Shown: in pieces, positions 2,295-29,330 of the stretch | How positions within the stretch are numbered: position 1 is the first letter of the stretch | Layout of the letters: each line of letters begins with the position of its first letter | Origin: Elusimicrobiota bacterium | GTDB lineage: Bacteria; Elusimicrobiota; Elusimicrobia; UBA1565; UBA9628 | Direction of reading: 5' to 3' | Length of the DNA stretch: 64,000 nucleotides | NCBI GenBank assembly: GCA_028868375.1 | Contig: JAGWUP010000002.1 | Location: 193,015-257,014 of the forward strand | Program-made: the position numbers and the translations under genes | The notes under the pieces: model-generated | What the model was told of the DNA's origin: nothing | What the model saw: the letters and a program-made list of their open reading frames with translations, nothing else | Databases searched by the model: none

Positions 2295-2296
2295 CG

Positions 2297-4978: not shown

Positions 4979-4998
4979 CCCCCGAGCCCAGGCGACCC
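4930..4998. repeat. Direct repeat copy 1: last ~69 bp of valS including the stop codon
   Basis: The sequence gacgagcgcgtcgagcgcctcagccggaccctggcgctgttgagctgacccccgagcccaggcgaccc recurs at 10188..10256 with 2 mismatches. Confidence 0.9.
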
Positions 4999-5081
4999 AT
5001 GGAATCGTAGGCCTTTTAGGCCATGCGCCTCTAGGTCCAATCCCCCTGGAGCCCGCCATCGGCGCCAACTACCCTTGAGGG

Positions 5082-8000
5082 ATGAAGGTTTCCCCGCGCA
5101 GGGGGCTGTGCGAAAGGGCATTGGCGTTGTTTCTCTGCCTGGCGCTGGCCTATGGCAGCTGGCCTTCCGGGGCCATCGCCGCGGTGGCTTTGCGGCAAGC
5201 GCCGCCAGTGGCGGGGCCCGAGCTCCCCTTCCTTGAGTTGTCCAGCCAGTTGGCGCGCATCGACGTCATCGCCGCGCAGCCGGCGCCGGGGACGCTGATC
5301 TCCTATCTGACCGACGCGATGCAAGCCTCCAGTCCCGCGCAGGCCGCCACGGCGCGCTTGATTTTCCAGGCCCTGAAACGGCCGGACCGAGTCCTGCCGC
5401 GCTTGCGCCGATCGGCGCTGTCCTCCGTCCAACCCCGGCAGGCCATTGCCGAGGTCGAGCGCCTCCAGGAGCTCGTGGAGTCCTATTACGGGAATAAGCG
5501 CGACAAGAGGGCGCTCGCGCAAGCGCTCTTTGCGGCGTCGCGCAAGCTGCGCGAGGCCGGCTTCGTGTTCGACAACCAGGCGCGCGCCGAGGCCGACAGC
5601 CCGGTCGCCGCTGTCGGTGGAGAGACCGCAGAACCCGGAGCGGCGCTCGAGCATCTTCAGCGCTACTATGCCGAGGCGCAGCGCGAGGAGACTCGTGCGC
5701 GGGCCGATCCGCCGTCTCGCACCCCTGTCGATGTCAGGATCGGAGGATTCGAGCCGAAAAATTTCACGAACAATAAAATCCCCATACTCCTAAAAGCGAT
5801 CGCGCAGGTGTATTTCGATATCCGGCACCTTTTTACCCTGGTCCTCGCCCTAGGCCACTACCGCGCGTTTTCGGGCATGACACAAGGCGTGATGACGCGC
5901 CTTTTCATCGACGGCGACAACTCGAAATACGTGCTTGGCTTTGAGCCCAGCCCGACGCCGAACGCCTGGGTCATTCCAGATCAGACCGTCGAAAGGACTC
6001 CCATCGGGGTCCACCTGGGCTTGCTGCCTTTCCTAGGCAACGAGGATGAGTATGCCGGCGTGCTGGCCCACGAGCTTACGCACCGCAACAAGCAACAAGG
6101 CAAGGCGCTCGCGGATGACCCCCGGATCGCGCGCGTTCTGGAATCCGTGGAGGGTTACGGCGATTTGGCCCCGAAGCAGCGCGAGGAGCTTCGCGCCGAC
6201 CTCGGCGGCGTCGACCGGCTGATCCGCGCGGGCTATAACCCCTGGGCGATGTACGACCGGGAGAAGCGCGTGGGCCGCTTCTTCTCGAAGTCGATGGATC
6301 TTTGGTTGACGCGCCAGATATTCAAGATATTCCATGGGCGGACCTTCGACTATATCGAGGCCCACCCGGCCAGCGAGATCCGCATGGCCGCGATCAAGGC
6401 GTATATCTTGGACCGGGGATTCCGCGAGGATCTCTCCGACGCCACCAAGCGCTACCAGCCGCTCTCTCCCGGTATTGTCTTGCTGCGCGAACGCATCCGC
6501 CTCCTCGCCTTTCCCTTCGTCTCGCCCTGGGTTTCCTACGGCATCATCGCCTATTGCGGGCTCATCGGCGCCCAGGGCATCCTGGGCTTGTTTCATCTTG
6601 CGGCGGCGAGCGCCATGGTTTCAAGGGCGCTCGGCGAGCTGGCCGGAGCTGTCCATGCGCTCTCGGGATCGGCACACCACTTTTTAGCGCCGGTTTCGGC
6701 TCTCATCAAAGCCGTGCTCTTTAAGACGCAGACGGTTATACGGGGGTTTACTTCTCATGTAATTTATCACGTGAGTCGTCAGGCGGGTCACTTTATAAGC
6801 CACGTCGTGTCGGATGTAATCGTATCGATGATGGGGATTGTCGTCGTTGCAGGTATCCCCTGCCTGCTCATTACCGTAAACTACCAAGAAGCCAAGGAAC
6901 ACGGCCTTTTGTACTTGCGATTCATGACCAGGCGGCTGACGAAGAGGGTCGAGCGTGGGGAAAAACGGGGGACGATCGAGCCGGAGAAGATTGCCCGCCT
7001 GCTCGCGATCAACACCACCCTTCTAAAGAAGATACCGGAGGCTTACAGACGGAGCGATTGGATGGTACGCCTTATAGGCGGCTTGAATGCCACGCGCCGT
7101 CGCGCCCTGCGCGCGCAGCAGGCCCTTCTCGAGCTTGCCGCGGCAAGGGTGTCGGAGCTGCCGGAGGATCAGCGGCCAAAGGCCCTGGCCAAATTCGAGG
7201 CGATCCTGGAGCGCATGCCCGCCTATGCGTACGCCGCAGGGGGAATCGCCTCCGCGACGGAGGGATTGCTCTCGGCCGGCGGGGAAGCTCGGGTTGACGA
7301 GGAAGCCACGGGCAGCGCGCAGCGCAGGCTGCGGCTGCTGCGACGCGTCCGCTCCTACGGCAGAGACGCCGATGCGGGCGCTGTCTTTAAGAGCGCCCAG
7401 GACCTGGCCCAAGAAGGCCTCTACGACCTGGCCAGGCGCCTGCTCAACGCCCACCGGACGCGCCTGCTGGCGCATATCTTCTCTCCCGCCGGCGATGACC
7501 CGGAGGGAGGCAGAGCCTTCGCGAAGCTGCACGAGGATGTCGCGTCGAGGACGGACTCGCACTTCGTTCATAAACGGCCGTTTTGGCCGAGGCTGTGGCG
7601 CAATTTCCCGTATTTGCGGGCGCGGATCAATCTCGCGGCGACCCCGATCGGCGGACGATTGTGGCTGGCCTCGCTTTCTCCCGAGGTCGCGCGCGCGGCG
7701 CCCGCGGCGTTTTCCGTCCTGTCTCCGGGAGCATGGCTGCAGCGTTTCGATCGTTGGGCGCTGCGGCGCTATCTCTCAAAACGGATCTCGTCGATCCGGC
7801 AGCTTTCCGAGTTCGTCGACGGCCTTAAGCGCGACAACATCCTGGTGGACAATCTCTCCACGGAGATCCAGGCTGTCATCGTGCGGCATCCGGAGTGGAT
7901 CGAGTCCGACGCTGACTTGAGCTATCTTATCGCCGACGAGGCGTTCTGGCCCAAATTCGGCGCCACGACGCCCGGGCCCCTCGAGGCGATGCTCGTCGCC

Positions 8001-10187
8001 TCCGTGAAGTCCTACGCCCAGCGCTTCCCGGACATCTGGAAATTCGATCCGGGTTCCTCAGAGAAGCTGCAGTCCTATTATCTCGCCGGGCTAAGGAAGC
8101 TGGGAGAATACCCCGGAACATGGGAGGGCCGCCGCCGGCTCTGGCGCCTGCTGGTCACGCGCGGCGTCACGAGCGCGACGGACGCCCTTTTTAGCGAGCT
8201 CTACCGGGAGGCTCCCGCGGGAAAGATTGGCGAGCTGGAGGAAGAAGCGCTGGGCGGGAGAATCTGGGAGCAGGGGCTTAAGGCCGGCATCGTCGAAAAC
8301 AGGATCAAGGCGACGCGGGACTACCGGCGGCTTCTGCTCTCTCGCTCTCCGACGGAGCGCGAGGCCTTGCTGCGCAAGCTCCTGGCCGCCGTGCAGGCGG
8401 AGTTTCCCGAACGCAGCGTCCAATACGTCGAGCTCTTGGAGCGGATGTCCCGAGAGATCGATTCCAGCCAGCAGGAGAGCCGCCTGATTCACGAGGCCAA
8501 GACGATCCGCAGCGGCGAGCGCTCCGAGGACTTCGGCCTGCGCGTCTTTTCCGAGCTCATCACGGAGGCCGTCGGTTGGAAGCGGCGCGAGCAGTGGGAC
8601 CTCGTGCTCTTCCTGCGCGGCGACATCCCGGCCACGCGCAAGATCCAGCGGGCCTTCCGCTCGATCGGTCCCGAGCGCGTGCGGCGCCTCTACGAGGTGA
8701 CGCCCGTGCTGGCGCGCGCCGGCATTCTGGATTCCTTCCTCGATTCTCCCAAGGGATTGTTGGCTAGCCTCGACATCGATCGCGGCTACGCCAAGGTGAT
8801 CATCGACCACGTCCTTCCCGGCGGCGATCCGGCCGCTCGCGAGGTGGCGCACCAGATTCTAGAGGGATTCCTCTACTCGCTTAAAAAAACCGGCAACGGC
8901 GCCCTCCAAAGCTACGTCCTGTCGTATCTCTTGGCCCTGCCGCCGGAAGGCTCCGCCTCGGTGGGCAAGGTCCTCAAAGGCGTGCTGGAGATCTTCGGGA
9001 CCACGGGCGTCAAGATCGGCCAGTTCCTGGCGGCATCGCAGCTTCTGCCGGAATCGGAGACCGCGGAGCTGCGCCAGCTGCAGGAGCACGCCAACGAGCC
9101 CGAGCGAGAGGAGGTGTACTCCGATTTGCGCGCGATCACGGGCAGGCCGCTTCCCTTCGCCCTCAAGGAGATCCTCGGCGCGGCATCGATCAAGTATGCC
9201 GTGCGCGGAGTCGAGACCGGCACGCAGCAGGAGTTGGCGCTCAAGGTCTTCCGATTGGAGGCCGTGGCGCATACCAGAGCGGAGTTCGAGCAGCTCGACG
9301 CGATGGCGCGCTACCTGCGTCGCCGCTTCGGCGCCCGTTACGGCGTGTTCATGGCCATCGTCAAGGCCGCGCGCAAAGCGGTGGAGAGGGAGCTCTCCGC
9401 CGAAGGCGAGATCGCCAACGGACGCCAGGCCGCGGAGACGGTTTACAGCGGCGCTTCGGACAAGGCGGTGGACGTCGCGGTTCCGCGAGAAGCGCTGCTT
9501 CATTCGCGCCTCATCGCCAGCGAATTCGCCCAGGGAACGTCCTTCTTCGACCTTGATCCCGCCTTGAGGCCGCTGGCCGCGGCGAAGATACTGTCCATGG
9601 AAGGAAACAATTTGTTCGGGGATGCTCCAGAGATCCACCTCGATCCGGACCGGCACGCCGGCAACTACCGCATCCAGGTCGTCGAGGAGCCGGCCGGGCC
9701 GAGGCTGCGGATTCGGCCCATCGACCACGGCCAGGGCCTCGCGCTGACGCGCGCCCGGCGCGAGCAGATATTCGAGCTCTTCGCCCTGGCGCAGATTCTC
9801 GCCCGCACCGGCTCGACGCGCTGGGGCGTGGACCGAATCTCTTCCGTCCTGGGGCTTGGGGAGGCGGCCAAGCGGCGGCTTGGCGGAAGCCTCGACGATT
9901 TTTTCACGGGAGAGGAACTGCGCCCGGTGGCGGCTTACTATTCGCTTCTCGCGGTTCTTGAGGAGTCCGGGCACGAGATGGACATCGTCTATTTCGATTT
10001 CGTGCGCGGCATCATCCAGCTCGGCCAATACGAACCCTTTGCCCCGCCTGGAACGCCGCTTCCCAGCGCGCGCCTCGAGGCGGAGACCCTCCGCCGCACC
10101 AAGAGGCTGGAGGCGTCCCTGCGGCTCTCGTGGCCGGAGAAAGCCCGTATTCTCGCCCGGCGGATTAGCGCCAGAAGCAACTGGTAG
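5082..10187 (+). CDS. Giant (1701 aa) secreted/membrane multidomain protein with an M48/M56-like Zn-metalloprotease module, a TM block and a C-terminal ABC1/UbiB-type atypical kinase-like domain
   Basis: Signal-peptide-like N-terminus (LALFLCLALAYGSWPSGAIAA). HExxH motif at HELTHRNKQ (nt ~6070) followed ~36 aa later by REELRADLGG...AGYNP (M48-type third ligand/ExxAD motif). Hydrophobic TM segments at ~6480-6900 (IVSMMGIVVVAGIPCLLITV). UbiB/ABC1 motifs at nt ~9000-9740: VKIGQFLAASQLLPE...LRQLQE, AASIKYAVRG...ALKVFR, HLDPDRHAGNYRI and IDHGQ. Confidence 0.6.
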   Translation: MKVSPRRGLCERALALFLCLALAYGSWPSGAIAAVALRQAPPVAGPELPFLELSSQLARIDVIAAQPAPGTLISYLTDAMQASSPAQAATARLIFQALKRPDRVLPRLRRSALSSVQPRQAIAEVERLQELVESYYGNKRDKRALAQALFAASRKLREAGFVFDNQARAEADSPVAAVGGETAEPGAALEHLQRYYAEAQREETRARADPPSRTPVDVRIGGFEPKNFTNNKIPILLKAIAQVYFDIRHLFTLVLALGHYRAFSGMTQGVMTRLFIDGDNSKYVLGFEPSPTPNAWVIPDQTVERTPIGVHLGLLPFLGNEDEYAGVLAHELTHRNKQQGKALADDPRIARVLESVEGYGDLAPKQREELRADLGGVDRLIRAGYNPWAMYDREKRVGRFFSKSMDLWLTRQIFKIFHGRTFDYIEAHPASEIRMAAIKAYILDRGFREDLSDATKRYQPLSPGIVLLRERIRLLAFPFVSPWVSYGIIAYCGLIGAQGILGLFHLAAASAMVSRALGELAGAVHALSGSAHHFLAPVSALIKAVLFKTQTVIRGFTSHVIYHVSRQAGHFISHVVSDVIVSMMGIVVVAGIPCLLITVNYQEAKEHGLLYLRFMTRRLTKRVERGEKRGTIEPEKIARLLAINTTLLKKIPEAYRRSDWMVRLIGGLNATRRRALRAQQALLELAAARVSELPEDQRPKALAKFEAILERMPAYAYAAGGIASATEGLLSAGGEARVDEEATGSAQRRLRLLRRVRSYGRDADAGAVFKSAQDLAQEGLYDLARRLLNAHRTRLLAHIFSPAGDDPEGGRAFAKLHEDVASRTDSHFVHKRPFWPRLWRNFPYLRARINLAATPIGGRLWLASLSPEVARAAPAAFSVLSPGAWLQRFDRWALRRYLSKRISSIRQLSEFVDGLKRDNILVDNLSTEIQAVIVRHPEWIESDADLSYLIADEAFWPKFGATTPGPLEAMLVASVKSYAQRFPDIWKFDPGSSEKLQSYYLAGLRKLGEYPGTWEGRRRLWRLLVTRGVTSATDALFSELYREAPAGKIGELEEEALGGRIWEQGLKAGIVENRIKATRDYRRLLLSRSPTEREALLRKLLAAVQAEFPERSVQYVELLERMSREIDSSQQESRLIHEAKTIRSGERSEDFGLRVFSELITEAVGWKRREQWDLVLFLRGDIPATRKIQRAFRSIGPERVRRLYEVTPVLARAGILDSFLDSPKGLLASLDIDRGYAKVIIDHVLPGGDPAAREVAHQILEGFLYSLKKTGNGALQSYVLSYLLALPPEGSASVGKVLKGVLEIFGTTGVKIGQFLAASQLLPESETAELRQLQEHANEPEREEVYSDLRAITGRPLPFALKEILGAASIKYAVRGVETGTQQELALKVFRLEAVAHTRAEFEQLDAMARYLRRRFGARYGVFMAIVKAARKAVERELSAEGEIANGRQAAETVYSGASDKAVDVAVPREALLHSRLIASEFAQGTSFFDLDPALRPLAAAKILSMEGNNLFGDAPEIHLDPDRHAGNYRIQVVEEPAGPRLRIRPIDHGQGLALTRARREQIFELFALAQILARTGSTRWGVDRISSVLGLGEAAKRRLGGSLDDFFTGEELRPVAAYYSLLAVLEESGHEMDIVYFDFVRGIIQLGQYEPFAPPGTPLPSARLEAETLRRTKRLEASLRLSWPEKARILARRISARSNW

Positions 10188-18618: not shown

Positions 18619-21213
18619 GGGCTGTAACGGGGTTGGCAGTCCCAGCTCTTGGCGAACGATGTCCTCGATGGCGGAACGCAGCTCGGGATTTTCCGCGGGC
18701 AGCAGGCGCTCCACGACCAGGGGATAGATCGCCTCGAGAAGCTCGCGGGAGGGATTGGCGATGAAATCCAGAGTCTGCTTGCGGCGCTCCTCCATCGGCA
18801 GCGGGGAGTCTGGTTTAAAGAAAGCTCCGAAGTCGCCGGCCGAGCGGCCGCGGCCGTCGGCGGTGACGAAGGCGTTCTCGCTATGGGCGTCTGTCATGTT
18901 GTCCCGGCTGCCGCTCCAGCCCGTCATGTGGGCCAGCATCATCGCCGCGGCGTTGCCGGCCAGGACGGTCGGCGCGGCCAGGTCCAGCGGCAAGGGCAGC
19001 CAGTCAACAAGTTTGCCGGTGTTTCTCAAGCGCTTGCCGTCCTCGTAGCGAAAGATCATCAGGCCCAGGGGATTGGATCTCGTAAAACGACGGAGGCGTC
19101 CGTAGAGGCGCAGAGTGCCCGTCCATTGCCCGAAAAAGAGGGGCTCGGGAGCCAGGCCGGGGCCCTCGCCCTGCGGGGCGTTTAGGAGCTCTTGGGCGAC
19201 TTCGAAGTGGGCCGGACTGATCCAGTCGCGGCCTTTCTCCTGGCCCGGCATCTTCAGCTCGACGGCGTAGCCGCCGGCGCCGGCCAATTGCATCCTGCGG
19301 AAGCTTTCGCTGACGGGATTGACCAGCAGCTTGCCGAGGGCGTATTGAAAGCCCTTGCGCTCGGACCAAGCCATCGTCGGCAGCGCGGAGGCGTTGGCGA
19401 GATTGTAGGGAACGGCCATGCGCAGGAAGCTCAGGGCGGTCAGGAAGACGGAGAGCCTGGCGCCGTGGCCCAAGATCAATGAGAGCTGGGGCAGTTGCCG
19501 CCACATTTGATCCTTCGCCCCGTGGCCCCAACGCTTCCGGCCCAGGGGTTTGAGCCCGCCGGAGCCGTTGGCCGAGGAGAGCAGGCGAGCAAGCCGTCCC
19601 CAGAGGGCGACCAGCGCCGAATTGACCCCCGCCCAATCCACTCCGAGGCTGACGGCCAGGCGCTTCAGCTCCTGCTCCGAGCCTTCCAGCACGATTCGCG
19701 CCAACCCGTCTAGGGCTTCGGAGCGCGCCTGCTCATCGACTTGCGGGACCATGGCCTGTAGCCGCAGCGACGGCAGCCAGATCTTGTGGATTTCCCCGGA
19801 TTGGCCAGGGACGGAATGGGCCAGATGGAGCCGGCCGGCCGGCTCCATGCCTAGGGCCACGGCCGGCTTGTCGCTGGCGAAGACCAGGCTCTTCTCCTCG
19901 CCGTCGCGGGGATCGACGAGCAACAATTTGTTGCCGGAAACGGCGATCAGCCTGCCGTCCGGGGAGAAGCCCAGCGGCCCGTAGCCGGACAGCGGCGCGG
20001 CCCTTTGGTAAATCCTCCGGCCGCTCTGTACGTCCCACAGGGAGAGAAGGCTCTTGCCGTTGTCATCGCTGGACAGCACCGCCAGGCGCCTGCCGTCGGC
20101 GGAGAAGACGGCATGGGTGGGCGACCACCAGTCGGAGCCATTTCTGTCAAACCCGGTTCTGAAAATCTGCCGGCCGTCCGCGTCATGGACGGCCAGGGTC
20201 TTCGAGTTCCAGTGGCTGGTGACGAGCGCGCGGCCGTCCGGGGAGATGGCCAGCGGGAAGCCGGGCAGGCTGCTTTGGCCCAGCAGTCTGCCGCCGGCGA
20301 GCTCCCAGGAGGCCAGGACGCTGTTGTCGTCGCTGTCGTAGGCGGCCAGCAGGCGGCCGTCGCCAGAAAAGCGCATGGCCATGGCGTCTTGAAAGCCCAT
20401 CACGCCCAACGTAGGCTCGGCAAGCCAGCGGATGGGGCCGCCGGGATTGTCGAGGTCGAGCAGCCCGACCTGGGAGGCCTCGTTGGACAGGGCCATCAGG
20501 ACGCCGTCCTCGCTGAACGCTCCGTTGCCGATCGCTGCCTCCTCGCCCGTCAGGTCGCGGAGAATCTTGTTCGACCTCGTGTCCCAGAGGGCGGTCCGTT
20601 CCTTGGACATCTCCAGCAGCAGCGAGCCGTCGGGCGAGAGGATGGTGCGCCCGCCGCCGCCGGACTTCGCGTCGATGAACGAGTCACTAGCTTCCCAGTG
20701 ATCCGCCAGCAGGGCGTCGAGCAGCGCGCCCTCGTGGGCCCGGCGCAGGTGGGCGAGGAAGGAGCGGATCAGGCGGGGCGCCTTGAGCGCCGATTGAGGG
20801 GCAAAGCCCAGGGCCCGCGCCTGCCCCCTGGTCAGCCGCGAGGCGGCGGCTCCGGACGTCAGCTCCCGGTGCAGAAGAAACTGGACCAGCTTGTCCTCGA
20901 CCCCGCGCCGCTGCAGGCGGGCGAATTTCTCCAGCTTCGCGTAGTCGCCGGGCTCGAGAGACGGGGCCCGGCTCAGAGTGATCCCCTGCTCCGCGATGGC
21001 GCCGGCGGCGGCGTCGAGATGGTAGCTCTGGACCTCGCTTAGGGCCGGCGGCAGGCTGGGGGCGACGGCCTCGGGCTGGGCCATCGCCTCCGGTTGGGCC
21101 AGCGCCGAGGACGGCGCCAGGCTTGCCAGAGCCAGGAAGCAGCAGAGAAGCAAGCGCGTCAGCACTGGAATATGATAGCGGCCGCTCAACGCGCGCGAGC
21201 GCCGGCTACTCAT
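18613..21213 (-). CDS. Secreted beta-propeller (WD40/TolB-like) repeat protein, 866 aa, with a C-terminal domain of unknown function
   Basis: Signal peptide (LLLCCFLALASLAPSSALA). Multiple SPDG/SxDG blade motifs (ILSPDGSLLL, AISPDGRALV, VFSADGRRLAV, GFSPDGRLIAV). The ~300-aa C-terminus has no recognisable motif. Confidence 0.6.
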   Translation of the reverse strand: MSSRRSRALSGRYHIPVLTRLLLCCFLALASLAPSSALAQPEAMAQPEAVAPSLPPALSEVQSYHLDAAAGAIAEQGITLSRAPSLEPGDYAKLEKFARLQRRGVEDKLVQFLLHRELTSGAAASRLTRGQARALGFAPQSALKAPRLIRSFLAHLRRAHEGALLDALLADHWEASDSFIDAKSGGGGRTILSPDGSLLLEMSKERTALWDTRSNKILRDLTGEEAAIGNGAFSEDGVLMALSNEASQVGLLDLDNPGGPIRWLAEPTLGVMGFQDAMAMRFSGDGRLLAAYDSDDNSVLASWELAGGRLLGQSSLPGFPLAISPDGRALVTSHWNSKTLAVHDADGRQIFRTGFDRNGSDWWSPTHAVFSADGRRLAVLSSDDNGKSLLSLWDVQSGRRIYQRAAPLSGYGPLGFSPDGRLIAVSGNKLLLVDPRDGEEKSLVFASDKPAVALGMEPAGRLHLAHSVPGQSGEIHKIWLPSLRLQAMVPQVDEQARSEALDGLARIVLEGSEQELKRLAVSLGVDWAGVNSALVALWGRLARLLSSANGSGGLKPLGRKRWGHGAKDQMWRQLPQLSLILGHGARLSVFLTALSFLRMAVPYNLANASALPTMAWSERKGFQYALGKLLVNPVSESFRRMQLAGAGGYAVELKMPGQEKGRDWISPAHFEVAQELLNAPQGEGPGLAPEPLFFGQWTGTLRLYGRLRRFTRSNPLGLMIFRYEDGKRLRNTGKLVDWLPLPLDLAAPTVLAGNAAAMMLAHMTGWSGSRDNMTDAHSENAFVTADGRGRSAGDFGAFFKPDSPLPMEERRKQTLDFIANPSRELLEAIYPLVVERLLPAENPELRSAIEDIVRQELGLPTPLQPE
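21178..21211. repeat. 34-bp perfect direct repeat, copy 2
   Basis: Identical to 18585..18618. It contains the TAG stop of the kinase gene and, in another frame, the first 11 codons (MSSRRSRALSG) of the beta-propeller gene. Confidence 0.9.
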
Positions 21214-23560
21214 GGGCCCTTGGTTTTGCGGCGGCTGAGCTTGCGTCTTTGTAGCCGTCGAAATGCAGGCGCTTCAGGATGTCCACAGCCGACTCTTTTA
21301 GCCTTCCCGTTTTGTGGGTGGCTATTCCCGTCAGCGTTTCAGGGCCGCCCGCTTCGGTGAAGAGCCGTTTTAATTCGCTCTCCGCCTGCTGCGGGCCGGC
21401 GCCGCCGCCGGCGATTTCCCGATGGATATCCCGCAGTATTCCGTCGAGAGCCTCCAACGCTTTCTCCCGGGTTCCGTTGTTCAGCTCGTCGTCCTGGGCG
21501 CGCTGGATTTGATGGGCCAGGCCCAGCAGCCATATGTGCCGCCGCGGGAGATCCTCCTTCGCCATGAGATACTTCAGCCAGCGAAAGAACGTCTCGTAGT
21601 CGTCGCCGTGGCCGCGCCAGGCCTGCAGGCCGGCCTCGAGGATCAGCGGCGAAAGCGGCGTTGCTCCCGGCTCCAAGCCTTCTTTGAGCTGCTCCGAGCG
21701 TCGCACCATCATCAGGACAAGCGTTTGGTAGACCGCTTTCGCGGCTTCCGGGTGCCAGGTCGTGAACTCGGCCAGCAGCAGCAGGTCGTCGAGGGTTTGC
21801 GGCGTGATCTCGCGGTGCCGGTAGAGGGAAATATAGTTGGCGAGCGCCGGGATGGGCGTGGTTCCATAGTCGGAGAGGAGCTTGTTGACGATGAAGCATA
21901 AGAGTTCGCGCAGCGAGGAGGCTTGCTGATCGTCGATCGTATGGCCGTGGCCCCAGAATGCGATCGCGGCCAGACTTTCTCTGTATACGGCGTCCAAGCC
22001 GTCAACGCGTTCCGGCTGTTTTGGAAGGCCCAGGTAGAAGTCCGCCATCTCGGCGCTAGTGCCGGGGTCCATCAGAGACTCAAGCCCTGATTTTCCGCGT
22101 CGCCGCATCCCCCAACGCCGCAGGGGCGCCAAATAGTTGGGCGCGGCCAGACCGGCCGACGTAGTTGTCAGGGCAAGACCATCGAAGAGAAATTTTAGAA
22201 GAGATGTAGATGATGGATCAACGTAACCCGAGAATAAGCAGCCCATCCAGACAACCACCCCGACAGCAGCACCGAGTCCAGCTTTACCACCTGATGTCCA
22301 ATGCATTTCGGAGGCCTTCTCCCGAAGTAGCGGCTTTCGTCGCGTGGCCGCTGGATTCTTTATGAACCCAAGCTGAATTGGACTCCCTAGAGCTGCCTGC
22401 GGCAAAATCGCAGTCCGCTCCAACGCTCGCTTGAACTCGCCGGCCGATTGAAAGCGCAGCTCGGGGCCAAGCCGCGTCGCTTTTTCGATGGCGGCTTGAA
22501 CCGCCGGGGAGACGCCGCGCATCGCCTTGGCGTCCGGCCTGCCAAACTGCGGCGGCGGCTCCAGTCCGGTCACCATCGTATACAGCAGCCAGCCCGCGCT
22601 ATAGACGTCGCTTCTTGCGTCGGTCTGGCTCTTGCCCCATTGCTCCGGCGCCGCGAAGCCCGGGGTGCCCAGCGCCACCGTGTCTGACTTCTGCCCGGGC
22701 TTTAATTTCCTGCCGGCCCCGAAATCGATCAGCTTAGCTCCGGACTCGCTTAAGATCACGTTGCCGGGCTTGAGGTCGCGATAGATCACGCCCACGCCTT
22801 TCCGGTGCATCGCTTCCAGGGTATCGAGCAGCGCGCTGATCACGCCGACGGCCTCGCCCTCGCCCATCCTGCCCCGATTAAGCCGCTGCTCCAGCGTCTG
22901 GCCGGGGAAATACTCTTCGACCAAGTACGGCGGCTCGTGCGATTGCTCGTATGCCCTGGGTTCCGGGATGTTGGGAACACCGGCTCGATTTAACTTTTGC
23001 AGCAACAGAAATTCGCCGCGAAGGGCGGCGCCGGCGTCTTCGGGGCTTATGCCGTTGCCAGTGTTGCCGAGGGCGAGCTTCAATGCATGGCTGCCGCCAT
23101 CGGGACCGTGGACCTTTAAGACGGTGGACATTCCGCCCGCGCCCAACAACTCGTCAACGACGAATTCTCCTATGCTATCGCCAGGCCGCGGGACCGCGCC
23201 ATGCCAATGAGAGACCTCCCCATCGACCAACCGCCGGACTTCCCTTGCGGGAGCGTCGGGGGATGGCCTCGCTGCTTGGAGGCGCGCCGAGCCTACGGCC
23301 GCGGGGAGAGCGGCCGGCGCCGGCGCCGGCAGCCCGGCTGCCGGCGTATAAGATAACGGCGCGGGCGGGAAAGGGACGCCGGGGCGATCGACGGCGCTGT
23401 CTTGCAAGCCCGGCATCCGTCCCGGCACGGAGACGATCGGCGCGTAGAGCGCGGCCGGGATCACGGGGCCTTCTTCCTCGATCGCGGCCAGCGCGGCCTG
23501 CGGCCAGATCAAGGCTAGGCAGAGGGCGGCGGCCAGCAGGCGGCGCAAGGAGGCCAGCAT
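21206..23560 (-). CDS. Hanks-type Ser/Thr protein kinase with N-terminal signal peptide, an internal TM segment and a large C-terminal domain
   Basis: Signal-peptide-like start (LLAAALCLALIWPQAALAA). Kinase motifs: GxGxxS-like (ELLGAGGMSTV), VAIK-like (HALKLAL), HRD (IYRDLKPGNVIL), DFG (LIDFGAGR) and APE (GTPGFAAPE). A hydrophobic TM segment follows (AGLGAAVGVVVWMGCLFSGYV), and then ~330 aa of uncharacterised domain. Confidence 0.8.
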   Translation of the reverse strand: MLASLRRLLAAALCLALIWPQAALAAIEEEGPVIPAALYAPIVSVPGRMPGLQDSAVDRPGVPFPPAPLSYTPAAGLPAPAPAALPAAVGSARLQAARPSPDAPAREVRRLVDGEVSHWHGAVPRPGDSIGEFVVDELLGAGGMSTVLKVHGPDGGSHALKLALGNTGNGISPEDAGAALRGEFLLLQKLNRAGVPNIPEPRAYEQSHEPPYLVEEYFPGQTLEQRLNRGRMGEGEAVGVISALLDTLEAMHRKGVGVIYRDLKPGNVILSESGAKLIDFGAGRKLKPGQKSDTVALGTPGFAAPEQWGKSQTDARSDVYSAGWLLYTMVTGLEPPPQFGRPDAKAMRGVSPAVQAAIEKATRLGPELRFQSAGEFKRALERTAILPQAALGSPIQLGFIKNPAATRRKPLLREKASEMHWTSGGKAGLGAAVGVVVWMGCLFSGYVDPSSTSLLKFLFDGLALTTTSAGLAAPNYLAPLRRWGMRRRGKSGLESLMDPGTSAEMADFYLGLPKQPERVDGLDAVYRESLAAIAFWGHGHTIDDQQASSLRELLCFIVNKLLSDYGTTPIPALANYISLYRHREITPQTLDDLLLLAEFTTWHPEAAKAVYQTLVLMMVRRSEQLKEGLEPGATPLSPLILEAGLQAWRGHGDDYETFFRWLKYLMAKEDLPRRHIWLLGLAHQIQRAQDDELNNGTREKALEALDGILRDIHREIAGGGAGPQQAESELKRLFTEAGGPETLTGIATHKTGRLKESAVDILKRLHFDGYKDASSAAAKPRAHE

Positions 23561-23629
23561 TTATTTAGTGTAGGCGAAGCCCGCCGCGATGTCATGGGCC
23601 GCAGGGCCCAGCGGCCTTAGGCCTTGGTC

Positions 23630-24259
23630 CTAGGACTTCGGGGGCTTGGCGACGGAGCTCGGGCGGGGCAATTCGAAGGCGTCGCCGGTGCGCGCGTACC
23701 AGGAGCCCTCCATGCGGCCGATGGCCTTGAGGTCCTGGTGGCGCGGCTGGCCGCCGTTCCAGAGGGCGTCGGCGATCGACAGATGGACGACCTTGCCGAT
23801 CACCAGATTCCCGGCCAGGGGGCCTTCGCCGATGGTGACGACCCGCAGCAGTTGGCACTCCATCTGCGCCGGCGATTCCTTGACGCGGGGGGGCCTGACC
23901 TTGACGCTGGGCAGCGGGGTCAGCCCGACCTTCTCGAACTCGCTGACCCCGTAGGGGTAGTCGGCGGAGCTTTGGTTGATCGCCGCGGCGTTGGCCTCGG
24001 TGGCGAGGTTGACGACGAATTGCCCGGTGGCGCGCGCGTTGACCAGGCTGTCCTTCTCCCTGCCGTCCCTGTTGTTGACCGGCGCGAAGCAAACGCTCAT
24101 CGGCTTGGCGGTGATCCCGGTAAAAAAGGAGAAGGGGGCGAGATTAGGAACGCCGTCGGGCGAGATGGTCGACACCCAGGCGATCGGGCGCGGCACGATC
24201 AGCGAGATCATCACCGCGTAGCGCTCGCGCAGCTCCAGCGCCTCGGGGTCAAGCTCCAT
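23630..24259 (-). CDS. Flavin reductase-like (FMN-binding split-barrel) domain protein
   Basis: The N-terminal region (VMISLIVPRPIAWVSTISPDGVPNLAPFSFF) is the typical flavin reductase like-domain signature. Confidence 0.7.
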   Translation of the reverse strand: MELDPEALELRERYAVMISLIVPRPIAWVSTISPDGVPNLAPFSFFTGITAKPMSVCFAPVNNRDGREKDSLVNARATGQFVVNLATEANAAAINQSSADYPYGVSEFEKVGLTPLPSVKVRPPRVKESPAQMECQLLRVVTIGEGPLAGNLVIGKVVHLSIADALWNGGQPRHQDLKAIGRMEGSWYARTGDAFELPRPSSVAKPPKS

Positions 24260-25529
24260 GGCGCCTCTTGGACCAGGAGAGCGGATAGCCGCCGTCGGCG
24301 ATCTTGAGGCCCTGGCCGGTGATTTGCAGGCTCTCGAAGAAGGTGTCGAGCATCACCGCCAGCTCCCGGGACATCTTGCCGCGCGCCTTAAGCGAGCGCT
24401 TGGCGGCCTCGCCCTGCGGGCTGTGCGGCAGGCCGGAGGGATGGAAGGTGATCGAGCCCGGCTCGATGACGCCTCTGCGCGCGCCGTAGTTCGCGTTGGA
24501 GAAGAACATCACCTCGTCGCAGTCGACGTTCTGGTGGGCGTAGGGGGCCGGCACGTTCGCGGGATGCCAGCCCTCGATCTGCGGGCGGAAGGTGCAGACG
24601 GCGAAGCCGTTGCGCGGGGCCTCGCCCGACTGGAAGGTCTGGCGCGTCGGCGGGGCGGTGTGGATCTCGCGCGAGATCGAGTGCTGGTCGGCGCTGTCGA
24701 AGGAGAAGGGATAAAGCGCCCCCTGCCAGCCGGCCAGGTCGAAGGGGTGGTGGCCCAGGGTCAGCCGGGTGACCCTGCCGCCGCCGTGCTTGACGAGCAC
24801 GGTGAAGCGCCCGGCCTCATCGCGCGCCGGGGGCAGCTGCGGCAGACCGATCTCGGTCTCCACGACCGGCGCCATCAGCGTCGCCTGCCCCTGGGCGTTG
24901 AGGTAATGGGGGGCGAAATGGATCGGCTGCAGCGACTCCACGATCAGGAAGAAGGCCGGCCCCTTGGCAAGCCGCCAGCGCGTCGTCGTGCCCTTGGGCA
25001 CGAGCAGGTAGAGGCCGGGGCGGAAGGGCAGGACGCCGTACTCCGTCTCCAGGCTGCCCCGGCCCTGCTGGACGAACAAGAGCTCGTGGGCCTCGCCGTT
25101 GCGGAAGAACTCGCCGGCGGGCGTGGAGCGGTCGGGGCGAGAGACGGAAATCGTCGTCGCGGGGCCGGCCAGCAGCGGGCGGCGCGCGCGCCAGAAATCG
25201 CCGCCGGCGGCCAGCCTGGCCGTCCTCAGATGGAAGGGCTGCAGCGGCAACTCCTGGGTCGGCTCCGCTCGCAGGTCGAAATCGGCCAGCCGCGGCGGCG
25301 CCACCTGCTCGGTGGGATAGCGCCGCAGGTGCATCTTGCGCGAATAGGCCCCGGAGAAGCCGTAGACGCCGTGGATCTCCTCCAGCGCCAGCAGTCCCGG
25401 CTTGGCGTGGAACTCGGTGTGGGGGACCTTCGGCACCTTGCCGCGCGTCGCGATCACCGCCATCGCGGCAGTATAGCTATTTTGCCGGTACCTCAAGCTG
25501 CCTCCGGTCTGCCCCGGCTGTGCTGCCAT
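24249..25529 (-). CDS. hmgA: Homogentisate 1,2-dioxygenase
   Basis: Length of 426 aa. Conserved HGD cupin regions (HELLFVQQGRGSLETEYGVLPF; NGFAVCTFRPQIEGWHPA; DEVMFFSNANYG...ITFHPSGLPHSP). It is adjacent to fah. Confidence 0.85.
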   Translation of the reverse strand: MAAQPGQTGGSLRYRQNSYTAAMAVIATRGKVPKVPHTEFHAKPGLLALEEIHGVYGFSGAYSRKMHLRRYPTEQVAPPRLADFDLRAEPTQELPLQPFHLRTARLAAGGDFWRARRPLLAGPATTISVSRPDRSTPAGEFFRNGEAHELLFVQQGRGSLETEYGVLPFRPGLYLLVPKGTTTRWRLAKGPAFFLIVESLQPIHFAPHYLNAQGQATLMAPVVETEIGLPQLPPARDEAGRFTVLVKHGGGRVTRLTLGHHPFDLAGWQGALYPFSFDSADQHSISREIHTAPPTRQTFQSGEAPRNGFAVCTFRPQIEGWHPANVPAPYAHQNVDCDEVMFFSNANYGARRGVIEPGSITFHPSGLPHSPQGEAAKRSLKARGKMSRELAVMLDTFFESLQITGQGLKIADGGYPLSWSKRRHGA

Positions 25530-25950
25530 GATTTCGCCGGTGAAAAGCCGACACGGTCGGGGCTTCAGCTAAGAAGCGCTGAGGTGGGTGACGGCGAGGA
25601 ATGCGGCGAGCGAGCACTGAGGACCTGCGTCACGATAATATGGTTATTTTGGACGGACGATTTTGGAGCGAGCCGAGGAGTGAGGAGCGAGCATAGCGAT
25701 CGCTATGTGAGCGACGAACGACGAAGGCGCAGCCCAAAATCGTCCGTCCCCTTCAGGGCGACCCGATTCCGGTCGATTTCATCGTTGCTCCTCGGTCACA
25801 TGGCCTGCGGCCATGCTCCCTCCTCGCGTCTTGAAATCGCCACGGACTCGGGTCGCCAAAATGACCATATTATCGTGACGCAGGTCCTTTGGGGCGCAGC
25901 GAAGCCGCGTCTGGAGCCGTCAGGACCCGCCGCAGCGCTTCTTAGCTGAG
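25520..25950. mobile_element. MITE-like palindromic element, family copy A (about 430 bp), between the fah stop and the hmgA start
   Basis: Nested inverted repeats: cagctaagaagcgctg (25566-81) pairs with cagcgcttcttagctg (25932-47); ggacctgcgtcacgataatatggt (25621-44) pairs with accatattatcgtgacgcaggtcc (25864-87); ggacggacgattttgg pairs with ccaaaatcgtccgtcc. The centre reads gagcatagcgatcgctatgtgagcgacgaacgacg. Related copies lie at 31000-31465 and 29037-29330. Confidence 0.55.
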
Positions 25951-25952
25951 GA

Positions 25953-29036: not shown

Positions 29037-29330
29037 CTAGTGTAGTGAATCATAAATCCCTTTGCATTTGGAGGCCCAATCCCGAGACGATTTCCAGGAG
29101 CGACGACCGAGAATAGCCGCAGCTATTTGAGGGAGAAGCGACGCAGAAATGGGCCGGGATTGGGCCTCCCCTGACTCTGAAGTCTTGATTGGGGAGGGGC
29201 AGCGCCATTTCGCCCGCCTGGCTTCGTTGCTCGTCGCTTGCATAGCTTAGGCTATGCGCGCTCCTCGCGCCTCGCCAGGCGCCAAACTGGCGCTGCCAAA
29301 TGCAAAGGGATTTATGATTCACTACACTAG
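29037..29330. mobile_element. MITE-like element (294 bp) with perfect 35-bp terminal inverted repeats
   Basis: The TIR ctagtgtagtgaatcataaatccctttgcatttgg (29037-71) pairs with ccaaatgcaaagggatttatgattcactacactag (29296-29330). The interior shares the family core (cgttgctcgtcgcttgcatagcttaggctatgcgcgctcctcgc, compared with cgtcgttcgtcgctcgcata... in the other copies). Confidence 0.6.

What the first reader, a model, noticed from the sequence alone, without database searches (positions are those of the whole stretch)
5082..23560. Four consecutive large secreted proteins (1701, 2493, 866, 784 aa) form a candidate effector island
A protease-kinase giant, an ART-transglutaminase giant, a signal-peptide beta-propeller with an unknown C-terminal domain and a signal-peptide Hanks kinase sit back-to-back. 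They are bounded on one side by the valS repeat and interleaved with direct repeats. They separate the HPPD-like gene from hmgA/fah, which normally cluster. Together this looks like an accessory virulence or predation locus rather than core metabolism.
Basis: inference. Interest (0 to 1): 0.6.

Follow-up and report, generated by a model that had tools for sequence, protein, structure and literature searches.

The report
Four separately inserted exported-enzyme genes
In an uncultivated soil or groundwater Elusimicrobiota genome, four big, almost family-less genes for exported protein-modifying enzymes were inserted one at a time into a gene block that about 20 relatives keep uninterrupted, and two still carry the duplicated-target scars of insertion; what the proteins do is not known.

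Summary
All four ORFs exist as described and are real genes. P1 combines an M48 metalloprotease, a TM block and an ABC1/UbiB kinase-like domain. P2 carries an H-Y-D ADP-ribosyltransferase and a weak transglutaminase/papain-like Cys-His-Asp motif. P3 is a WD40/PD40 propeller plus 370 unknown residues. P4 is a Hanks kinase with a TM segment and 335 unknown residues.

About 20 Elusimicrobiota relatives have fah–hmgA-like–flavin reductase–HPPD-like contiguous and convergent with valS. None of the 32 retrieved loci carries a P1–P4 homolog. P4, P2 and P1 have the lowest codon adaptation of 27 window genes. P2 and P3 are orphans, and P1 has four relatives among 5.8 billion protein clusters.

The block is not one co-inherited island. 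P1 is bracketed by a 69-nt duplication of the valS 3' end, and P3 by a perfect 34-nt duplication starting at P4's last codon. A P1 homolog in an unrelated contig is bracketed in the same way (21 nt). No recombinase lies in the window.

The accessory status is well supported. "Secreted virulence or predation effectors" is untested, and P1, P2 and P4 have internal hydrophobic segments that suggest membrane anchoring.

The parts
2297..4978 (+). valS, a conserved backbone gene. Its last 49 nt form the first part of repeat D1.
   Evidence: Pfam tRNA-synt_1 E 3e-130. Convergent with the HPPD-like gene in 14 relatives.
4930..4998 (.). D1 copy 1: the last 46 nt of valS coding sequence, its stop codon, and 20 nt downstream.
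   Evidence: the repeat finder D1, 69 nt, 97% identical. Sequence shown. Local alignment score 128, reached by 0 of 500 shuffles.
4999..5081 (+). 83-nt leader of the P1 insertion.
   Evidence: Lies between D1 copy 1 and the P1 ATG. No second copy in the window.
5082..10187 (+). P1, 1701 aa: signal-like N-terminus, M48 metalloprotease, TM block, long helical region, ABC1/UbiB kinase-like domain.
   Evidence: The family alignment keeps the HExxH and ABC1 motifs. Only 4 real relatives, at 31-43% identity.
5931..6251 (+). P1 M48 catalytic core (aa ~284-390; HELTH at 330-334, with E...AD downstream).
   Evidence: Pfam PF01435 E 6e-7. PDB 3c37 alignment. H330, E331 and H334 are invariant in the family.
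6519..6881 (+). P1 hydrophobic block (aa ~480-600) with at least two TM-like segments.
   Evidence: Kyte-Doolittle scan, segments 488-506 and 579-597.
9078..9785 (+). P1 ABC1/UbiB atypical kinase-like domain (aa ~1333-1568).
   Evidence: Pfam PF03109 at 31.5 bits, above the 22.9 cut-off, covering profile positions 2-230 of 244. TIGR01982 E 8e-11, far below the equivalog cut-off.
10188..10256 (.). D1 copy 2: a displaced copy of the valS 3' end that begins directly after the P1 stop codon.
   Evidence: The single coding mismatch is synonymous, so both copies encode DERVERLSRTLALLS*. The independent Logan contig L001 breaks inside it.
10331..17812 (+). P2, 2493 aa, an orphan giant: signal-like N-terminus, hydrophobic segment, Pro/Ala linker, ART module, Cys-His-Asp module, and about 700 unknown C-terminal residues. 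Its stop overlaps the HPPD-like stop in the palindrome GGCTAGCC.
   Evidence: Only self-hits among 5.8 billion clusters. No Pfam, NCBIfam, PADLOC, PHROG or PDB hit for the whole protein. NCBI record MDE2039417.1, annotated 'hypothetical protein'.
12947..13015 (+). P2 TM-like segment (aa 873-895).
   Evidence: Hydropathy 2.04. The flank before it carries four positive residues.
13955..14542 (+). P2 ADP-ribosyltransferase module (aa ~1209-1404) with the H-Y-D triad: FHGS, GMYFT and MAD-IVVV.
   Evidence: 35 relatives by index-free HMMER. Alignment A2. 24/24 members hit ART-PolyVal, 13 hit DUF3990 and 6 hit PARP. PARP14 and PARP3 are the best real PDB matches at E ~0.1. The H-Y-D definition is from PMC5512222.
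15611..15790 (+). P2 transglutaminase/papain-like candidate (aa ~1761-1820): GVC(1771)RHKS, SH(1801)LFLVV and YVLD(1815)S.
   Evidence: Sub-threshold hit to PF14381 EDR1/CTR1/ARMC3 peptidase-like, E 2e-3, 18.3 vs 27 bits. Motif seen by inspection. No PDB hit. The AF2 model is unusable.
17809..18561 (-). HPPD-like gene (250 aa), a conserved backbone gene stranded between the two insertion sites.
   Evidence: 53-79% identical orthologues in 32 loci. GC3 0.92.
18568..18596 (-). Promoter-like site for the HPPD-like gene. The -35 hexamer lies inside D9 copy A, and the -10 hexamer ends 6 nt before the ATG.
   Evidence: 5 sites found, 1.2 +/- 1.1 expected in shuffles.
18585..18618 (.). D9 copy A: P3's last codon and stop (GAG TAG on the minus strand) plus 28 nt towards the HPPD-like gene.
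   Evidence: 34 nt, 100% identical. Sequence shown. The Logan contig L001 ends inside it.
18613..21213 (-). P3, 866 aa from the first ATG (850 aa from the GTG at codon 17, as annotated at NCBI): signal peptide, WD40/PD40 propeller, then an unknown 370-aa C-terminal region. No internal TM.
   Evidence: Apart from the identical MAG record, every homolog covers only the propeller, 16-43% of the query. NCBI 850-aa record.
19924..20646 (-). P3 beta-propeller (aa ~190-430).
   Evidence: Beta-prop_THOC3 E 2.5e-13. PD40 at 23.1 bits, above the 20.9 cut-off.
21178..21211 (.). D9 copy B: P4's last codon and stop plus the first 11 codons of the long P3 ORF.
21206..23560 (-). P4, 784 aa: signal-like N-terminus, Pro/Ala-rich stretch, Hanks kinase, one TM, then an unknown 335-aa C-terminal region.
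   Evidence: Pkinase E 8e-31. PknB-type E 8e-29. Catalytic motifs GAGGMSTV, ALK, YRDLKPGN, IDFG and GTPGFAAPE are present. No family hit for the C-terminus.
22391..23161 (-). P4 kinase domain (aa ~134-390).
22220..22282 (-). P4 TM segment (aa 427-447). The kinase-side flank is positively charged.
23567..23595 (-). Promoter-like site in the 69-nt spacer between the flavin reductase gene and P4. The -10 hexamer ends 6 nt before the P4 ATG.
23630..26966 (-). Backbone genes: flavin reductase (23630-24259), hmgA-like (24249-25529) and fah (25953-26966).
   Evidence: Pfam. Contiguous with the HPPD-like gene in about 20 relatives. The flavin reductase stop and HPPD-like start overlap or lie <=43 nt apart.

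Best explanation
The 18.5-kb block is a mosaic insertion hot spot in an Elusimicrobiota chromosome. It is not one co-inherited operon or island.

Shown: the ancestral backbone is rSAM-PhoH-valS, convergent with HPPD-like, flavin reductase, hmgA-like and fah. The last four genes form a tight, often translationally coupled unit. Four large, lineage-restricted genes with atypical codon usage now sit at two junctions of this backbone. P1 and P2 lie between valS and the HPPD-like gene. P4 and P3 lie between the flavin reductase and the HPPD-like gene.

Shown: P1 and P3 are each still bracketed by a direct duplication of the sequence at the 3' end of the gene upstream, including its stop codon. P1 has 69 nt of the valS end. 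P3 has 34 nt starting at P4's last codon. P3 therefore arrived after P4, and P1 arrived at the valS side of P2. A distant P1 homolog in an unrelated locus shows the same scar (21 nt).

Inferred: the P1 family travels as a single-gene cassette. The duplications have variable length, always consist of the upstream gene's end, differ by a synonymous change, and no recombinase is present. This fits one of two routes. One is integration of a circular or linear donor that carried a copy of the target gene's 3' end (one-sided homologous recombination with an illegitimate second join). The other is an integrase acting in trans on an att site at the gene end.

Inferred, with lower confidence: all four proteins start with Sec-type signal sequences and carry protein-modifying catalytic modules. 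They are most likely envelope-located or exported enzymes used in interactions with other cells. P2 is the best candidate for a multi-domain toxin or effector.
For: Backbone and absence in relatives:
- 32 loci were retrieved with the HPPD-like anchor. About 20 Elusimicrobiota loci show fah, hmgA-like, flavin reductase and HPPD-like contiguous. 14 show convergent valS 34 bp to 6.9 kb away.
- There is no tblastn hit (E<=1e-5) to P1-P4 in any locus.
- The flavin reductase stop and HPPD-like start overlap (ATGA) or lie <=43 nt apart in relatives. In the window they are 5.07 kb apart.

Composition:
- GC3 is 0.81, 0.78, 0.85 and 0.74 for P1-P4, against 0.91-0.95 for the adjacent backbone genes.
- P4, P2 and P1 have the three lowest codon-adaptation values of 27 genes.

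Rarity:
- P2 hits only itself.
- P3 has only propeller-level hits.
- P1 has four relatives, all on Logan contigs.

Scars:
- D1 and D9, with junction sequences.
- D1 scores 128, reached by 0 of 500 shuffles, and its coding mismatch is synonymous.
- The independent Logan contig L001 maps at 100% identity to window 10197-18614, so it breaks at both repeats.
- In L035 the P1 homolog P0122 is bracketed by a perfect 21-nt repeat made of the upstream gene's 3' end.

Mobile-element links of the P1 architecture:
- An HTH_17 (excisionase-type) gene abuts P0123.
- An IMG/VR contig carrying a large serine recombinase and ParB/RepB genes encodes consecutive M48, unknown and ABC1-like ORFs.

Domains.

The same module classes (zincin peptidases, H-Y-D ARTs, Ser/Thr kinases) dominate conflict effectors (PMC5512222).
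Against: - The nearest relative found is only 79% (HPPD-like) and 71% (valS) identical. The timing of the insertions is therefore unknown, and no empty-site allele of the same species was found (metagenome scans for D9 and D1 gave 0 hits).
- No integrase, transposase or excisionase lies in the 64-kb window.
- P2 and P4 have no detectable flanking repeats. Their insertion is inferred only from synteny and composition.
- Lower GC3 is also seen in a few other window genes. It could reflect low expression rather than foreign origin.
- There is no evidence of a joint function. The four proteins share no domain with each other.
- Signal peptides and TM segments were judged by hydropathy and inspection only.
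- For P4 the N-terminal signal and the charge bias at its TM give contradictory topologies.
- The P2 ART lacks the first Glu of the family's E-G-G-E motif.
Confidence: 0.7

Rival explanations
1. A dedicated effector or toxin island. The four proteins would be secreted together and act on a prey or host cell: protease/kinase, ART/Cys-peptidase, a propeller adaptor and a Hanks kinase.
For: - All four have Sec-type N-termini.
- The module classes match those of polyvalent and polymorphic conflict effectors.
- A signal peptide in front of a Hanks kinase is unusual for a housekeeping receptor kinase.
- The genes are accessory and have atypical codon usage.
- A T2SS/T4P-type ATPase and pilin-like genes lie in the same window.
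Against: - The genes were acquired separately, lie on two strands and share no common regulator or domain.
- P1, P2 and P4 have internal TM-like segments.
- No secretion-system targeting domains and no immunity gene were found. P2 is followed by the convergent HPPD-like gene.
- There are no hits in defence, phage or plasmid collections beyond the generic kinase.
- No host-associated or predatory lifestyle for this lineage was examined or found here.
Confidence: 0.3
2. Ordinary, lineage-specific envelope signalling proteins. P4 would be a receptor Ser/Thr kinase with an extracytoplasmic C-terminal sensor. P3 would be a periplasmic propeller partner. P1 would be a membrane protease/kinase for regulated proteolysis. 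Their clustering would be incidental.
For: - The positive-inside rule at P4's TM predicts a cytoplasmic kinase and an external C-terminal domain.
- P3's best propeller relatives are fusions of WD40 with Ser/Thr kinases, BlaR1-type M56/M48 transducers or ECF sigma factors. These are transmembrane signalling architectures.
- P4 and P3 overlap by 8 nt, which suggests translational coupling.
- P4's kinase is of the bacterial PknB type.
Against: - This reading does not explain P2 (an H-Y-D ART of the conflict-system type).
- It does not explain the signal-like N-termini in front of the P4 kinase and P1.
- The P3/P4 overlap is a by-product of the D9 duplication.
- It does not explain why such proteins are absent from all relatives and nearly family-less.
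Confidence: 0.25
3. The repeats and the gene order are assembly artefacts of strain mixtures, so the 'insertions' are not contiguous in any real genome.
For: - The window comes from a metagenome-assembled genome. In a sister MAG this region is shattered into 1-3 kb contigs.
- Logan contigs break at both repeats. Population heterogeneity would produce the same breaks.
Against: - The D1 copies differ at two positions, so they are not a trivial assembler duplication.
- Any path through the assembly graph requires reads that join the P1 stop to the valS-like 69-mer.
- The NCBI locus tags for P2 and P3 (KGO96_02165 and KGO96_02175) are spaced so as to leave one gene between them, as in the window. 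Both proteins are recorded on two NCBI contigs, the longest 294 kb.
- The same scar type occurs around a P1 homolog in an unrelated sample.
Confidence: 0.05

Closest known systems
Integrase-less, att-flanked genomic islets (cis-mobilisable elements, CIMEs, derived from integrative elements that target the 3' end of a gene)
   Same: The insert is bracketed by direct repeats made of the 3' end of the target gene, which stays intact. Composition is atypical. The insert is absent from relatives. It contains cargo only.
   Different: - Each insert is a single gene.
- Three different repeat sequences and lengths occur (69, 34 and 21 nt) at three different target genes.
- No integrase lies anywhere in the 64 kb.
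- The target is not a tRNA gene.
- No accretion array of repeated att sites is seen.
Orphan-module arrays of Rhs/CDI polymorphic toxin loci, and homology-facilitated illegitimate recombination (both from my own knowledge)
   Same: Incoming DNA that carries the end of a conserved gene recombines at that gene. The old 3' end is left as a displaced copy downstream. The duplication length is variable and no dedicated recombinase is needed.
   Different: The anchor genes here are housekeeping or unrelated genes (valS, an outer-membrane barrel gene, P4), not a toxin core. No toxin/immunity pairs are present. The mechanism is inferred, not shown.
Polyvalent proteins of phages and conjugative elements, and polymorphic toxins (Iyer et al. 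2017, PMC5512222)
   Same: Very large multi-domain polypeptides that combine zincin peptidases, H-Y-D ARTs (PF18760), kinases and Cys peptidases. They evolve fast and their distribution is patchy.
   Different: - P1-P4 are chromosomal and have Sec signals and TM segments.
- They have no DNA-targeting domains.
- They lack virion, conjugation or secretion-system context.
- No immunity genes are present.
- Phage and plasmid collections gave no hits.
Bacterial receptor-type Hanks kinases and STK-WD40 fusions
   Same: P4 has a PknB-type kinase followed by one TM and a C-terminal domain. P3's propeller is most similar to those fused to such kinases.
   Different: P4 has a 130-aa N-terminal extension with a signal-like segment. 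The propeller is a separate, later-inserted gene with its own signal peptide. Both C-terminal domains are unmatched.
M48 peptidases (HtpX, BepA and Ste24 types) and UbiB/ABC1 atypical kinases
   Same: P1 keeps the HExxH...E core and the ABC1 catalytic motifs.
   Different: The two are fused in one 1700-2100-aa protein with a TM block and about 700 unknown residues. Only about five such proteins were found. P1 is not a UbiB orthologue (41 bits against a 488-bit cut-off).
Giant genes of Omnitrophota and other uncultivated phyla (bioRxiv 10.1101/2023.11.21.568195)
   Same: Large, poorly annotated, membrane-associated proteins of uncultivated bacteria, for which extracellular roles are suspected.
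   Different: Those proteins are >10,000-30,000 aa, have many TM helices and carry SecA-like domains. P1 and P2 are 1.7-2.5 kaa with different domains.

Membership tests
Genomic island / integrative element | Absent from the same locus in related genomes | tested here: met
   No P1-P4 homolog in 32 loci. The backbone is contiguous in about 20 Elusimicrobiota relatives.
Genomic island / integrative element | Atypical composition or codon usage | tested here: met
   GC3 is 0.74-0.85 against 0.91-0.95 for adjacent backbone genes. P4, P2 and P1 have the lowest codon adaptation of 27 genes.
Genomic island / integrative element | Flanking direct repeats (attL/attR) derived from the target | tested here: met
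   Met for P1 (69 nt) and P3 (34 nt). Not met for P2 and P4, whose junction alignments are no better than shuffles.
Genomic island / integrative element | Integrase, recombinase or excisionase gene in or next to the element | tested here: not met
   No such Pfam domain in any window ORF scanned. Recombinase or excisionase-like genes appear only next to distant P1-type genes elsewhere.
Genomic island / integrative element | Empty-site or excised circular form in the population | tested here: inconclusive
   Exact-match scans of JGI metagenome contigs for the D9 and D1 cores found nothing at all.
Integron gene cassette | attC recombination site after each ORF, plus intI and attI | tested here: not met
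   No intI in the window. D1 and D9 are unrelated sequences. They share only GTTGAGC, which is compatible with chance (sequences and my estimate).
ART-PolyVal / H-Y-D ADP-ribosyltransferase (PF18760) | Sequence match to the family model | tested here: inconclusive
   P2 alone scores 21-23 bits against a 31.2 cut-off. However, all 24 aligned relatives of the module hit PF18760, with a best E of 1.5e-10.
ART-PolyVal / H-Y-D ADP-ribosyltransferase (PF18760) | Catalytic His (strand 1), Tyr (strand 2) and Asp (strand 5) | tested here: met
   FHGS, GMYFT and MAD-IVVV align with the family's YHGS, GxYFT and HD-xYVIF. The triad definition is from PMC5512222. Enzyme activity was not tested.
Polyvalent protein / polymorphic toxin | Phage, conjugation or secretion-system delivery context, or a downstream immunity gene | tested here: not met
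   No such domains. No phage or plasmid hits. The gene downstream of P2 is the convergent HPPD-like gene.
Transglutaminase-like / papain-like cysteine peptidase | Match to a family model, and a Cys-His-Asp triad in the right order | tested here: inconclusive
   No hit to Transglut_core. PF14381 gives E 2e-3, below its cut-off. C1771, H1801 and D1815 fit the pattern by inspection. The AF2 model is unusable (pLDDT 39).
Peptidase M48 | HExxH zinc motif with a downstream Glu ligand, plus a model match | tested here: met
   29.8 bits against a 20.3 cut-off. The alignment to 3c37 includes HELTH and E...AD. The motif is invariant in the P1 family.
ABC1/UbiB atypical kinase | Pfam ABC1 model above its cut-off | tested here: met
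   31.5 bits against 22.9 over 230 of 244 profile positions.
ABC1/UbiB atypical kinase | Orthology to UbiB (equivalog cut-off) | tested here: not met
   TIGR01982 scores 41 bits against a 487.55 cut-off.
Hanks-type Ser/Thr kinase | Pkinase model above its cut-off, with catalytic motifs | tested here: met
   107.8 bits against 31.7. G-loop, VAIK-type Lys, RD-LKPGN, DFG and APE-like motifs are located.
Sec-secreted soluble protein | Cleavable signal peptide and no further TM segment | tested here: inconclusive
   Signal-like N-termini are present in all four by inspection. Only P3 lacks internal hydrophobic segments. No SignalP or TMHMM-type tool was available.

The most novel reading that the evidence does not exclude
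P1-family genes (M48-TM-ABC1 giants), and perhaps P3, would be a so-far undescribed kind of single-gene mobile cassette. Such a cassette would insert at the 3' end of resident genes. It would leave variable-length (21-69 nt) duplications that include the resident gene's stop codon, and it would carry no recombinase of its own. It would spread exported protein-modifying enzymes among uncultivated bacteria.
Probability: 0.15. Interest if true: 0.75.

Novelty: new variant of a known kind. Interest (0 to 1): 0.5.

Why it matters
The locus gives an unusually clean, stepwise record of how large orphan genes enter a conserved operon in an uncultivated phylum. The backbone, the insertion order and the junction scars can all be read directly from the sequence.

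It also defines a very rare M48-ABC1 fusion family that shows the same scar in two unrelated genomes. And it contains a 2493-aa protein whose only recognisable relatives belong to the conflict-type H-Y-D ART family.

If the proteins prove to be exported effectors, this would suggest antagonistic or host-directed behaviour in an Elusimicrobiota lineage known only from soil and groundwater MAGs. If the scars reflect a recombinase-free cassette mechanism, that mechanism would matter for understanding gene flow more generally.

Tried and rejected
- AlphaFold2 single-sequence models of the P3 C-terminus and of P2 aa 1640-2290 gave pLDDT 38 and 39. I therefore ran no fold searches, because matches would have been meaningless.
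- My idea that the P3 C-terminus (TDAHSENAF...GDFGAFF) is a PI3/4K- or HipA-like kinase has no support from Pfam, NCBIfam, PDB or the model. I dropped it.
- PADLOC hits for P4 are generic kinase matches.
- P2 has no hit in the phage or plasmid collections. P1 has only an M48-core hit on one plasmid. PHROGs gave nothing specific.
- Metagenome scans for D9 and for the D1 core gave 0 hits.
- Relatives with insertions at the valS junction show no duplicated valS end.
- No other gene in the window is bracketed by repeats.
- Decayed repeats around P2 and P4 are not better than shuffles.
- A motif in the cassette leaders that I thought was conserved by eye was not reproduced by MAFFT.
- The 'GGTTCGAATCC' tRNA-like string in L035 is not a tRNA or a fragment scored by ARAGORN or Rfam.
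- The integron-like GTTGAGC shared by D1 and D9 is compatible with chance.
- The four proteins share no cryptic domain with each other or with the ORFs filling the gap in relatives.

Full report
**1. Observation**

The four ORFs are present exactly as described: P1 at 5082-10187 (+, 1701 aa), P2 at 10331-17812 (+, 2493 aa), P3 at 18613-21213 (-, 866 aa) and P4 at 21206-23560 (-, 784 aa). All show a coding GC1/GC2/GC3 pattern.

They are not strictly consecutive. A 250-aa HPPD-like gene (17809-18561, -) lies between P2 and P3. The order on the minus strand is fah, hmgA-like, flavin reductase, P4, P3, HPPD-like.

**2. What the proteins are**

- **P1.** It has a signal-like N-terminus and an M48 zinc-protease core. 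Pfam gives 29.8 bits against a 20.3 cut-off, and the core aligns to PDB 3c37 including HELTH and a downstream E...AD. A hydrophobic block follows at residues ~480-600. The C-terminus is an ABC1/UbiB-type kinase-like domain that passes the Pfam cut-off when scanned alone (31.5 against 22.9 bits). It is far from a UbiB orthologue.
- **P1 family.** Only four real relatives exist among 5.8 billion protein clusters. All are on short Logan contigs at 31-43% identity. They conserve the HExxH and ABC1 motifs.
- **P2.** The whole protein matches nothing in Pfam, NCBIfam, PADLOC, PHROGs or PDB. It hits only itself in the word-indexed search.
- **P2 ART module.** An index-free HMMER search of residues 1150-2349 against 1.84 billion representatives found 35 relatives. 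All of them align to one ~190-aa module, P2 residues ~1209-1404. All 24 aligned members hit PF18760 ART-PolyVal, 13 hit DUF3990 and 6 hit PARP. The family profile's best real PDB matches are PARP14 and PARP3 at E ~0.1. Iyer et al. describe this family as H-Y-D ARTs of conflict systems (PMC5512222). P2 keeps H, Y and D.
- **P2 transglutaminase reading.** This rests on a Cys1771/His1801/Asp1815 pattern and a sub-threshold hit to a transglutaminase-fold peptidase model (E 2e-3). I rate it inconclusive.
- **P3.** It has a signal peptide and a WD40/PD40 propeller (E 2.5e-13). Its 370-aa C-terminal region is unmatched.
- **P4.** It is a PknB-type Hanks kinase with one TM segment. Its 335-aa C-terminus is unmatched.

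All four N-termini look like Sec signals by inspection. P1, P2 and P4 also have internal TM-like segments. For P4, the charge bias at the TM predicts a cytoplasmic kinase, which contradicts a cleaved signal peptide. The topology is unresolved.

**3. Accessory status**

I used the HPPD-like protein as an anchor and retrieved 32 loci from species-representative genomes. The closest are Elusimicrobia/Elusimicrobiota MAGs from soil, palsa and groundwater, at 61-79% identity.

- In about 20 of them, fah, hmgA-like, flavin reductase and HPPD-like are contiguous.
- In 14 of them, valS-PhoH-rSAM lies convergent, 34 bp to 6.9 kb away.
- No locus has any tblastn hit to P1-P4.
- In relatives the flavin reductase stop and the HPPD-like start overlap (ATGA) or lie <=43 nt apart. 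In the window, 5.07 kb (P4+P3) splits them.
- The valS/HPPD-like gap in relatives holds unrelated small or mid-size ORFs, many with signal peptides. It is a variable spot.

Composition agrees. GC3 is 0.81, 0.78, 0.85 and 0.74 for P1-P4, against 0.91-0.95 for valS, PhoH, HPPD-like, flavin reductase, hmgA-like and fah. P4, P2 and P1 have the three lowest codon-adaptation values of 27 window genes, and P3 lies in the low tail.

**4. Not one island: insertion scars**

*Repeat D1 (69 nt, 97% identical).* Copy 1 (4930-4998) is the last 46 coding nt of valS, its stop codon and 20 nt downstream. Copy 2 (10188-10256) starts immediately after P1's stop. The one coding mismatch is synonymous.

*Repeat D9 (34 nt, 100% identical).* On the minus strand it begins with GAG TAG. 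In copy B (21178-21211) this is P4's last codon and stop. In copy A (18585-18618) it is P3's last codon and stop. P3 was therefore inserted after P4. The first 11 codons of the long P3 ORF are target sequence. The NCBI annotation of 850 aa starts at the GTG at codon 17, which still gives a good signal peptide.

*Independent support.*
- The Logan contig L001 maps at 100% identity to window 10197-18614. It breaks exactly at the first k-mers unique to D1 copy 2 and D9 copy A, as expected for true two-copy repeats.
- On the unrelated Logan contig L035 (62% GC), the P1 homolog P0122 (41% identity) is also bracketed by a perfect 21-nt repeat. Copy 1 is the end of the upstream outer-membrane barrel gene running into its stop codon. 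Copy 2 lies 43 nt after the P0122 stop, just before the next gene's TATAAT box.

*Negative results.*
- P2 and P4 have no detectable flanking repeats.
- No other window gene is bracketed by repeats.
- Relatives do not have duplicated valS ends.
- No recombinase is encoded anywhere in the window.

*Mobile-element links of the P1 architecture.* An HTH_17 excisionase-type gene abuts P0123. A 36%-GC IMG/VR contig with a large serine recombinase, two ParB/RepB genes and a Fic protein carries consecutive M48, unknown and ABC1-like ORFs.

**5. Mechanism**

*Shown:* separate single-gene insertions into a conserved backbone, two with target duplications.

*Inferred:* four features constrain the route of insertion. 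The duplication lengths are variable (69, 34 and 21 nt). The duplications always consist of the upstream gene's end. The two D1 copies differ by a synonymous change. No recombinase is present. Two routes fit:
- recombination of incoming DNA that already carried the end of the anchor gene, through a one-sided homologous crossover plus an illegitimate join, or Campbell-type integration of a circle;
- an integrase acting in trans on an att site at the gene end.

A classical fixed-length transposon target duplication does not fit.

Promoter-like sites sit directly upstream of P4 and of the HPPD-like gene. In both, the -10 hexamer ends 6 nt before the ATG, which suggests leaderless transcripts. This would let the stranded HPPD-like gene be expressed on its own (5 sites found against 1.2 expected).

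**6. Function**

Nothing tested here shows virulence or predation. The module set (zincin protease, H-Y-D ART, Cys-peptidase-like, two kinase types) parallels the protein-targeting modules of polyvalent and polymorphic conflict proteins. Combined with Sec signals, it makes exported or envelope-anchored enzymes that act on other cells the most likely reading. P2 is the best toxin or effector candidate.

The main rival is ordinary envelope signalling. P3's propeller relatives are mostly fusions to Ser/Thr kinases, BlaR1-type metalloprotease transducers or ECF sigma factors. P4's TM charge bias also fits a receptor kinase.

**7. Limits**

- Both AlphaFold2 single-sequence models were unusable (pLDDT 38 and 39), so no fold search was run.
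- Metagenome scans for empty sites found nothing.
- The nearest relative is only about 71-79% identical in backbone proteins.
- Signal peptide and TM calls were made by hydropathy and inspection only.

**8. Verdict**

I classify it as a new variant of a known kind, an insertion hot spot carrying conflict-type cargo. The unusual detail is single-gene insertions scarred by duplicated gene ends, without a recombinase, recurring in the rare P1 family. Interest: 0.5.

Noticed in passing
window 25565-25949; 31024-31412; 29037-29330: A MITE-like, very strongly self-folding repeat family. Copy e1 (385 nt, nested 25- and 33-nt terminal inverted repeats, MFE -246 kcal/mol) sits between fah and hmgA-like, where most relatives have only ~15-30 nt. 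A second copy is 81% identical and inverted. A third (e2, 35-nt perfect inverted ends) is more distant. The family is absent from the relatives' loci and has no Rfam match.
   Followed up: partly
window 29327-30967 (-): A 546-aa orphan ORF with a clear signal peptide (MRAALLLVALLGASAHA), no Pfam hit and GC3 0.83. It is flanked on both sides by the MITE-like elements (29037-29330 and 31024-31412), which resembles a composite arrangement.
   Followed up: no
window 17809-26966 and loci L002-L033: The 'HPPD-like' (250 aa) and 'hmgA-like' proteins match the 4HPPD and HgmA models only weakly. Yet they form a strongly conserved four-gene unit with a flavin reductase and an FAH-family hydrolase across Elusimicrobiota. 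The HPPD-like protein alone recurs at 53-56% identity in Myxococcales and Bdellovibrio-like genomes, without these neighbours. This may be a variant aromatic-ring cleavage pathway.
   Followed up: partly
window 17805-17816: P2 and the convergent HPPD-like gene end in the same palindrome, GGCTAGCC. Their stop codons overlap (CTAG) and there is no intergenic base between the two genes.
   Followed up: partly
window 49650-51461; 60158-60595; 60666-61088; tRNA-Leu 59912-59998: A T2SS/T4P-type ATPase (T2SSE + MshEN) and two tandem pilin-like genes with the prepilin motif GFTL[IV]ELMIVV lie in the window. The pilin genes are low-GC (0.59-0.61) and sit next to a tRNA-Leu(CAG) gene.
   Followed up: no
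L039 (IMGVR_UViG_3300002063_000034) 146-11608: A 36%-GC putative viral or plasmid-like contig. It carries a Fic protein, a large serine recombinase and two ParB/RepB genes. Three consecutive ORFs follow (M48, unknown, ABC1-like), which together mimic the P1 architecture. They may be one gene split by frameshifts.
   Followed up: partly
L034 (JGI 3300082588 contig) 5920-14992: P0126 is a weak P1 relative (1663 aa, no Pfam hit). It sits next to an 832-aa orphan and a PD40 protein, inside a region dense in toxin-antitoxin and defence genes (HEPN/MNT, HipA, PIN/Phd, GmrSD, TgpA transglutaminase).
   Followed up: no
window 21206-23560, first 40 codons of P4: The signal-peptide-encoding 5' end of P4 has host-like GC3 (0.93), while the rest of the gene has 0.73-0.74. 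This could mean that the N-terminus is chimeric or of native origin.
   Followed up: no
window D1 (4930-4998) and D9 (18585-18618): Both repeats contain GTTGAGC preceded by GCGC(T). This matches the integron core-site consensus GTTRRRY. One of the two D1 mismatches falls on the G of this motif. It is probably chance (about 0.1 by my estimate).
   Followed up: partly
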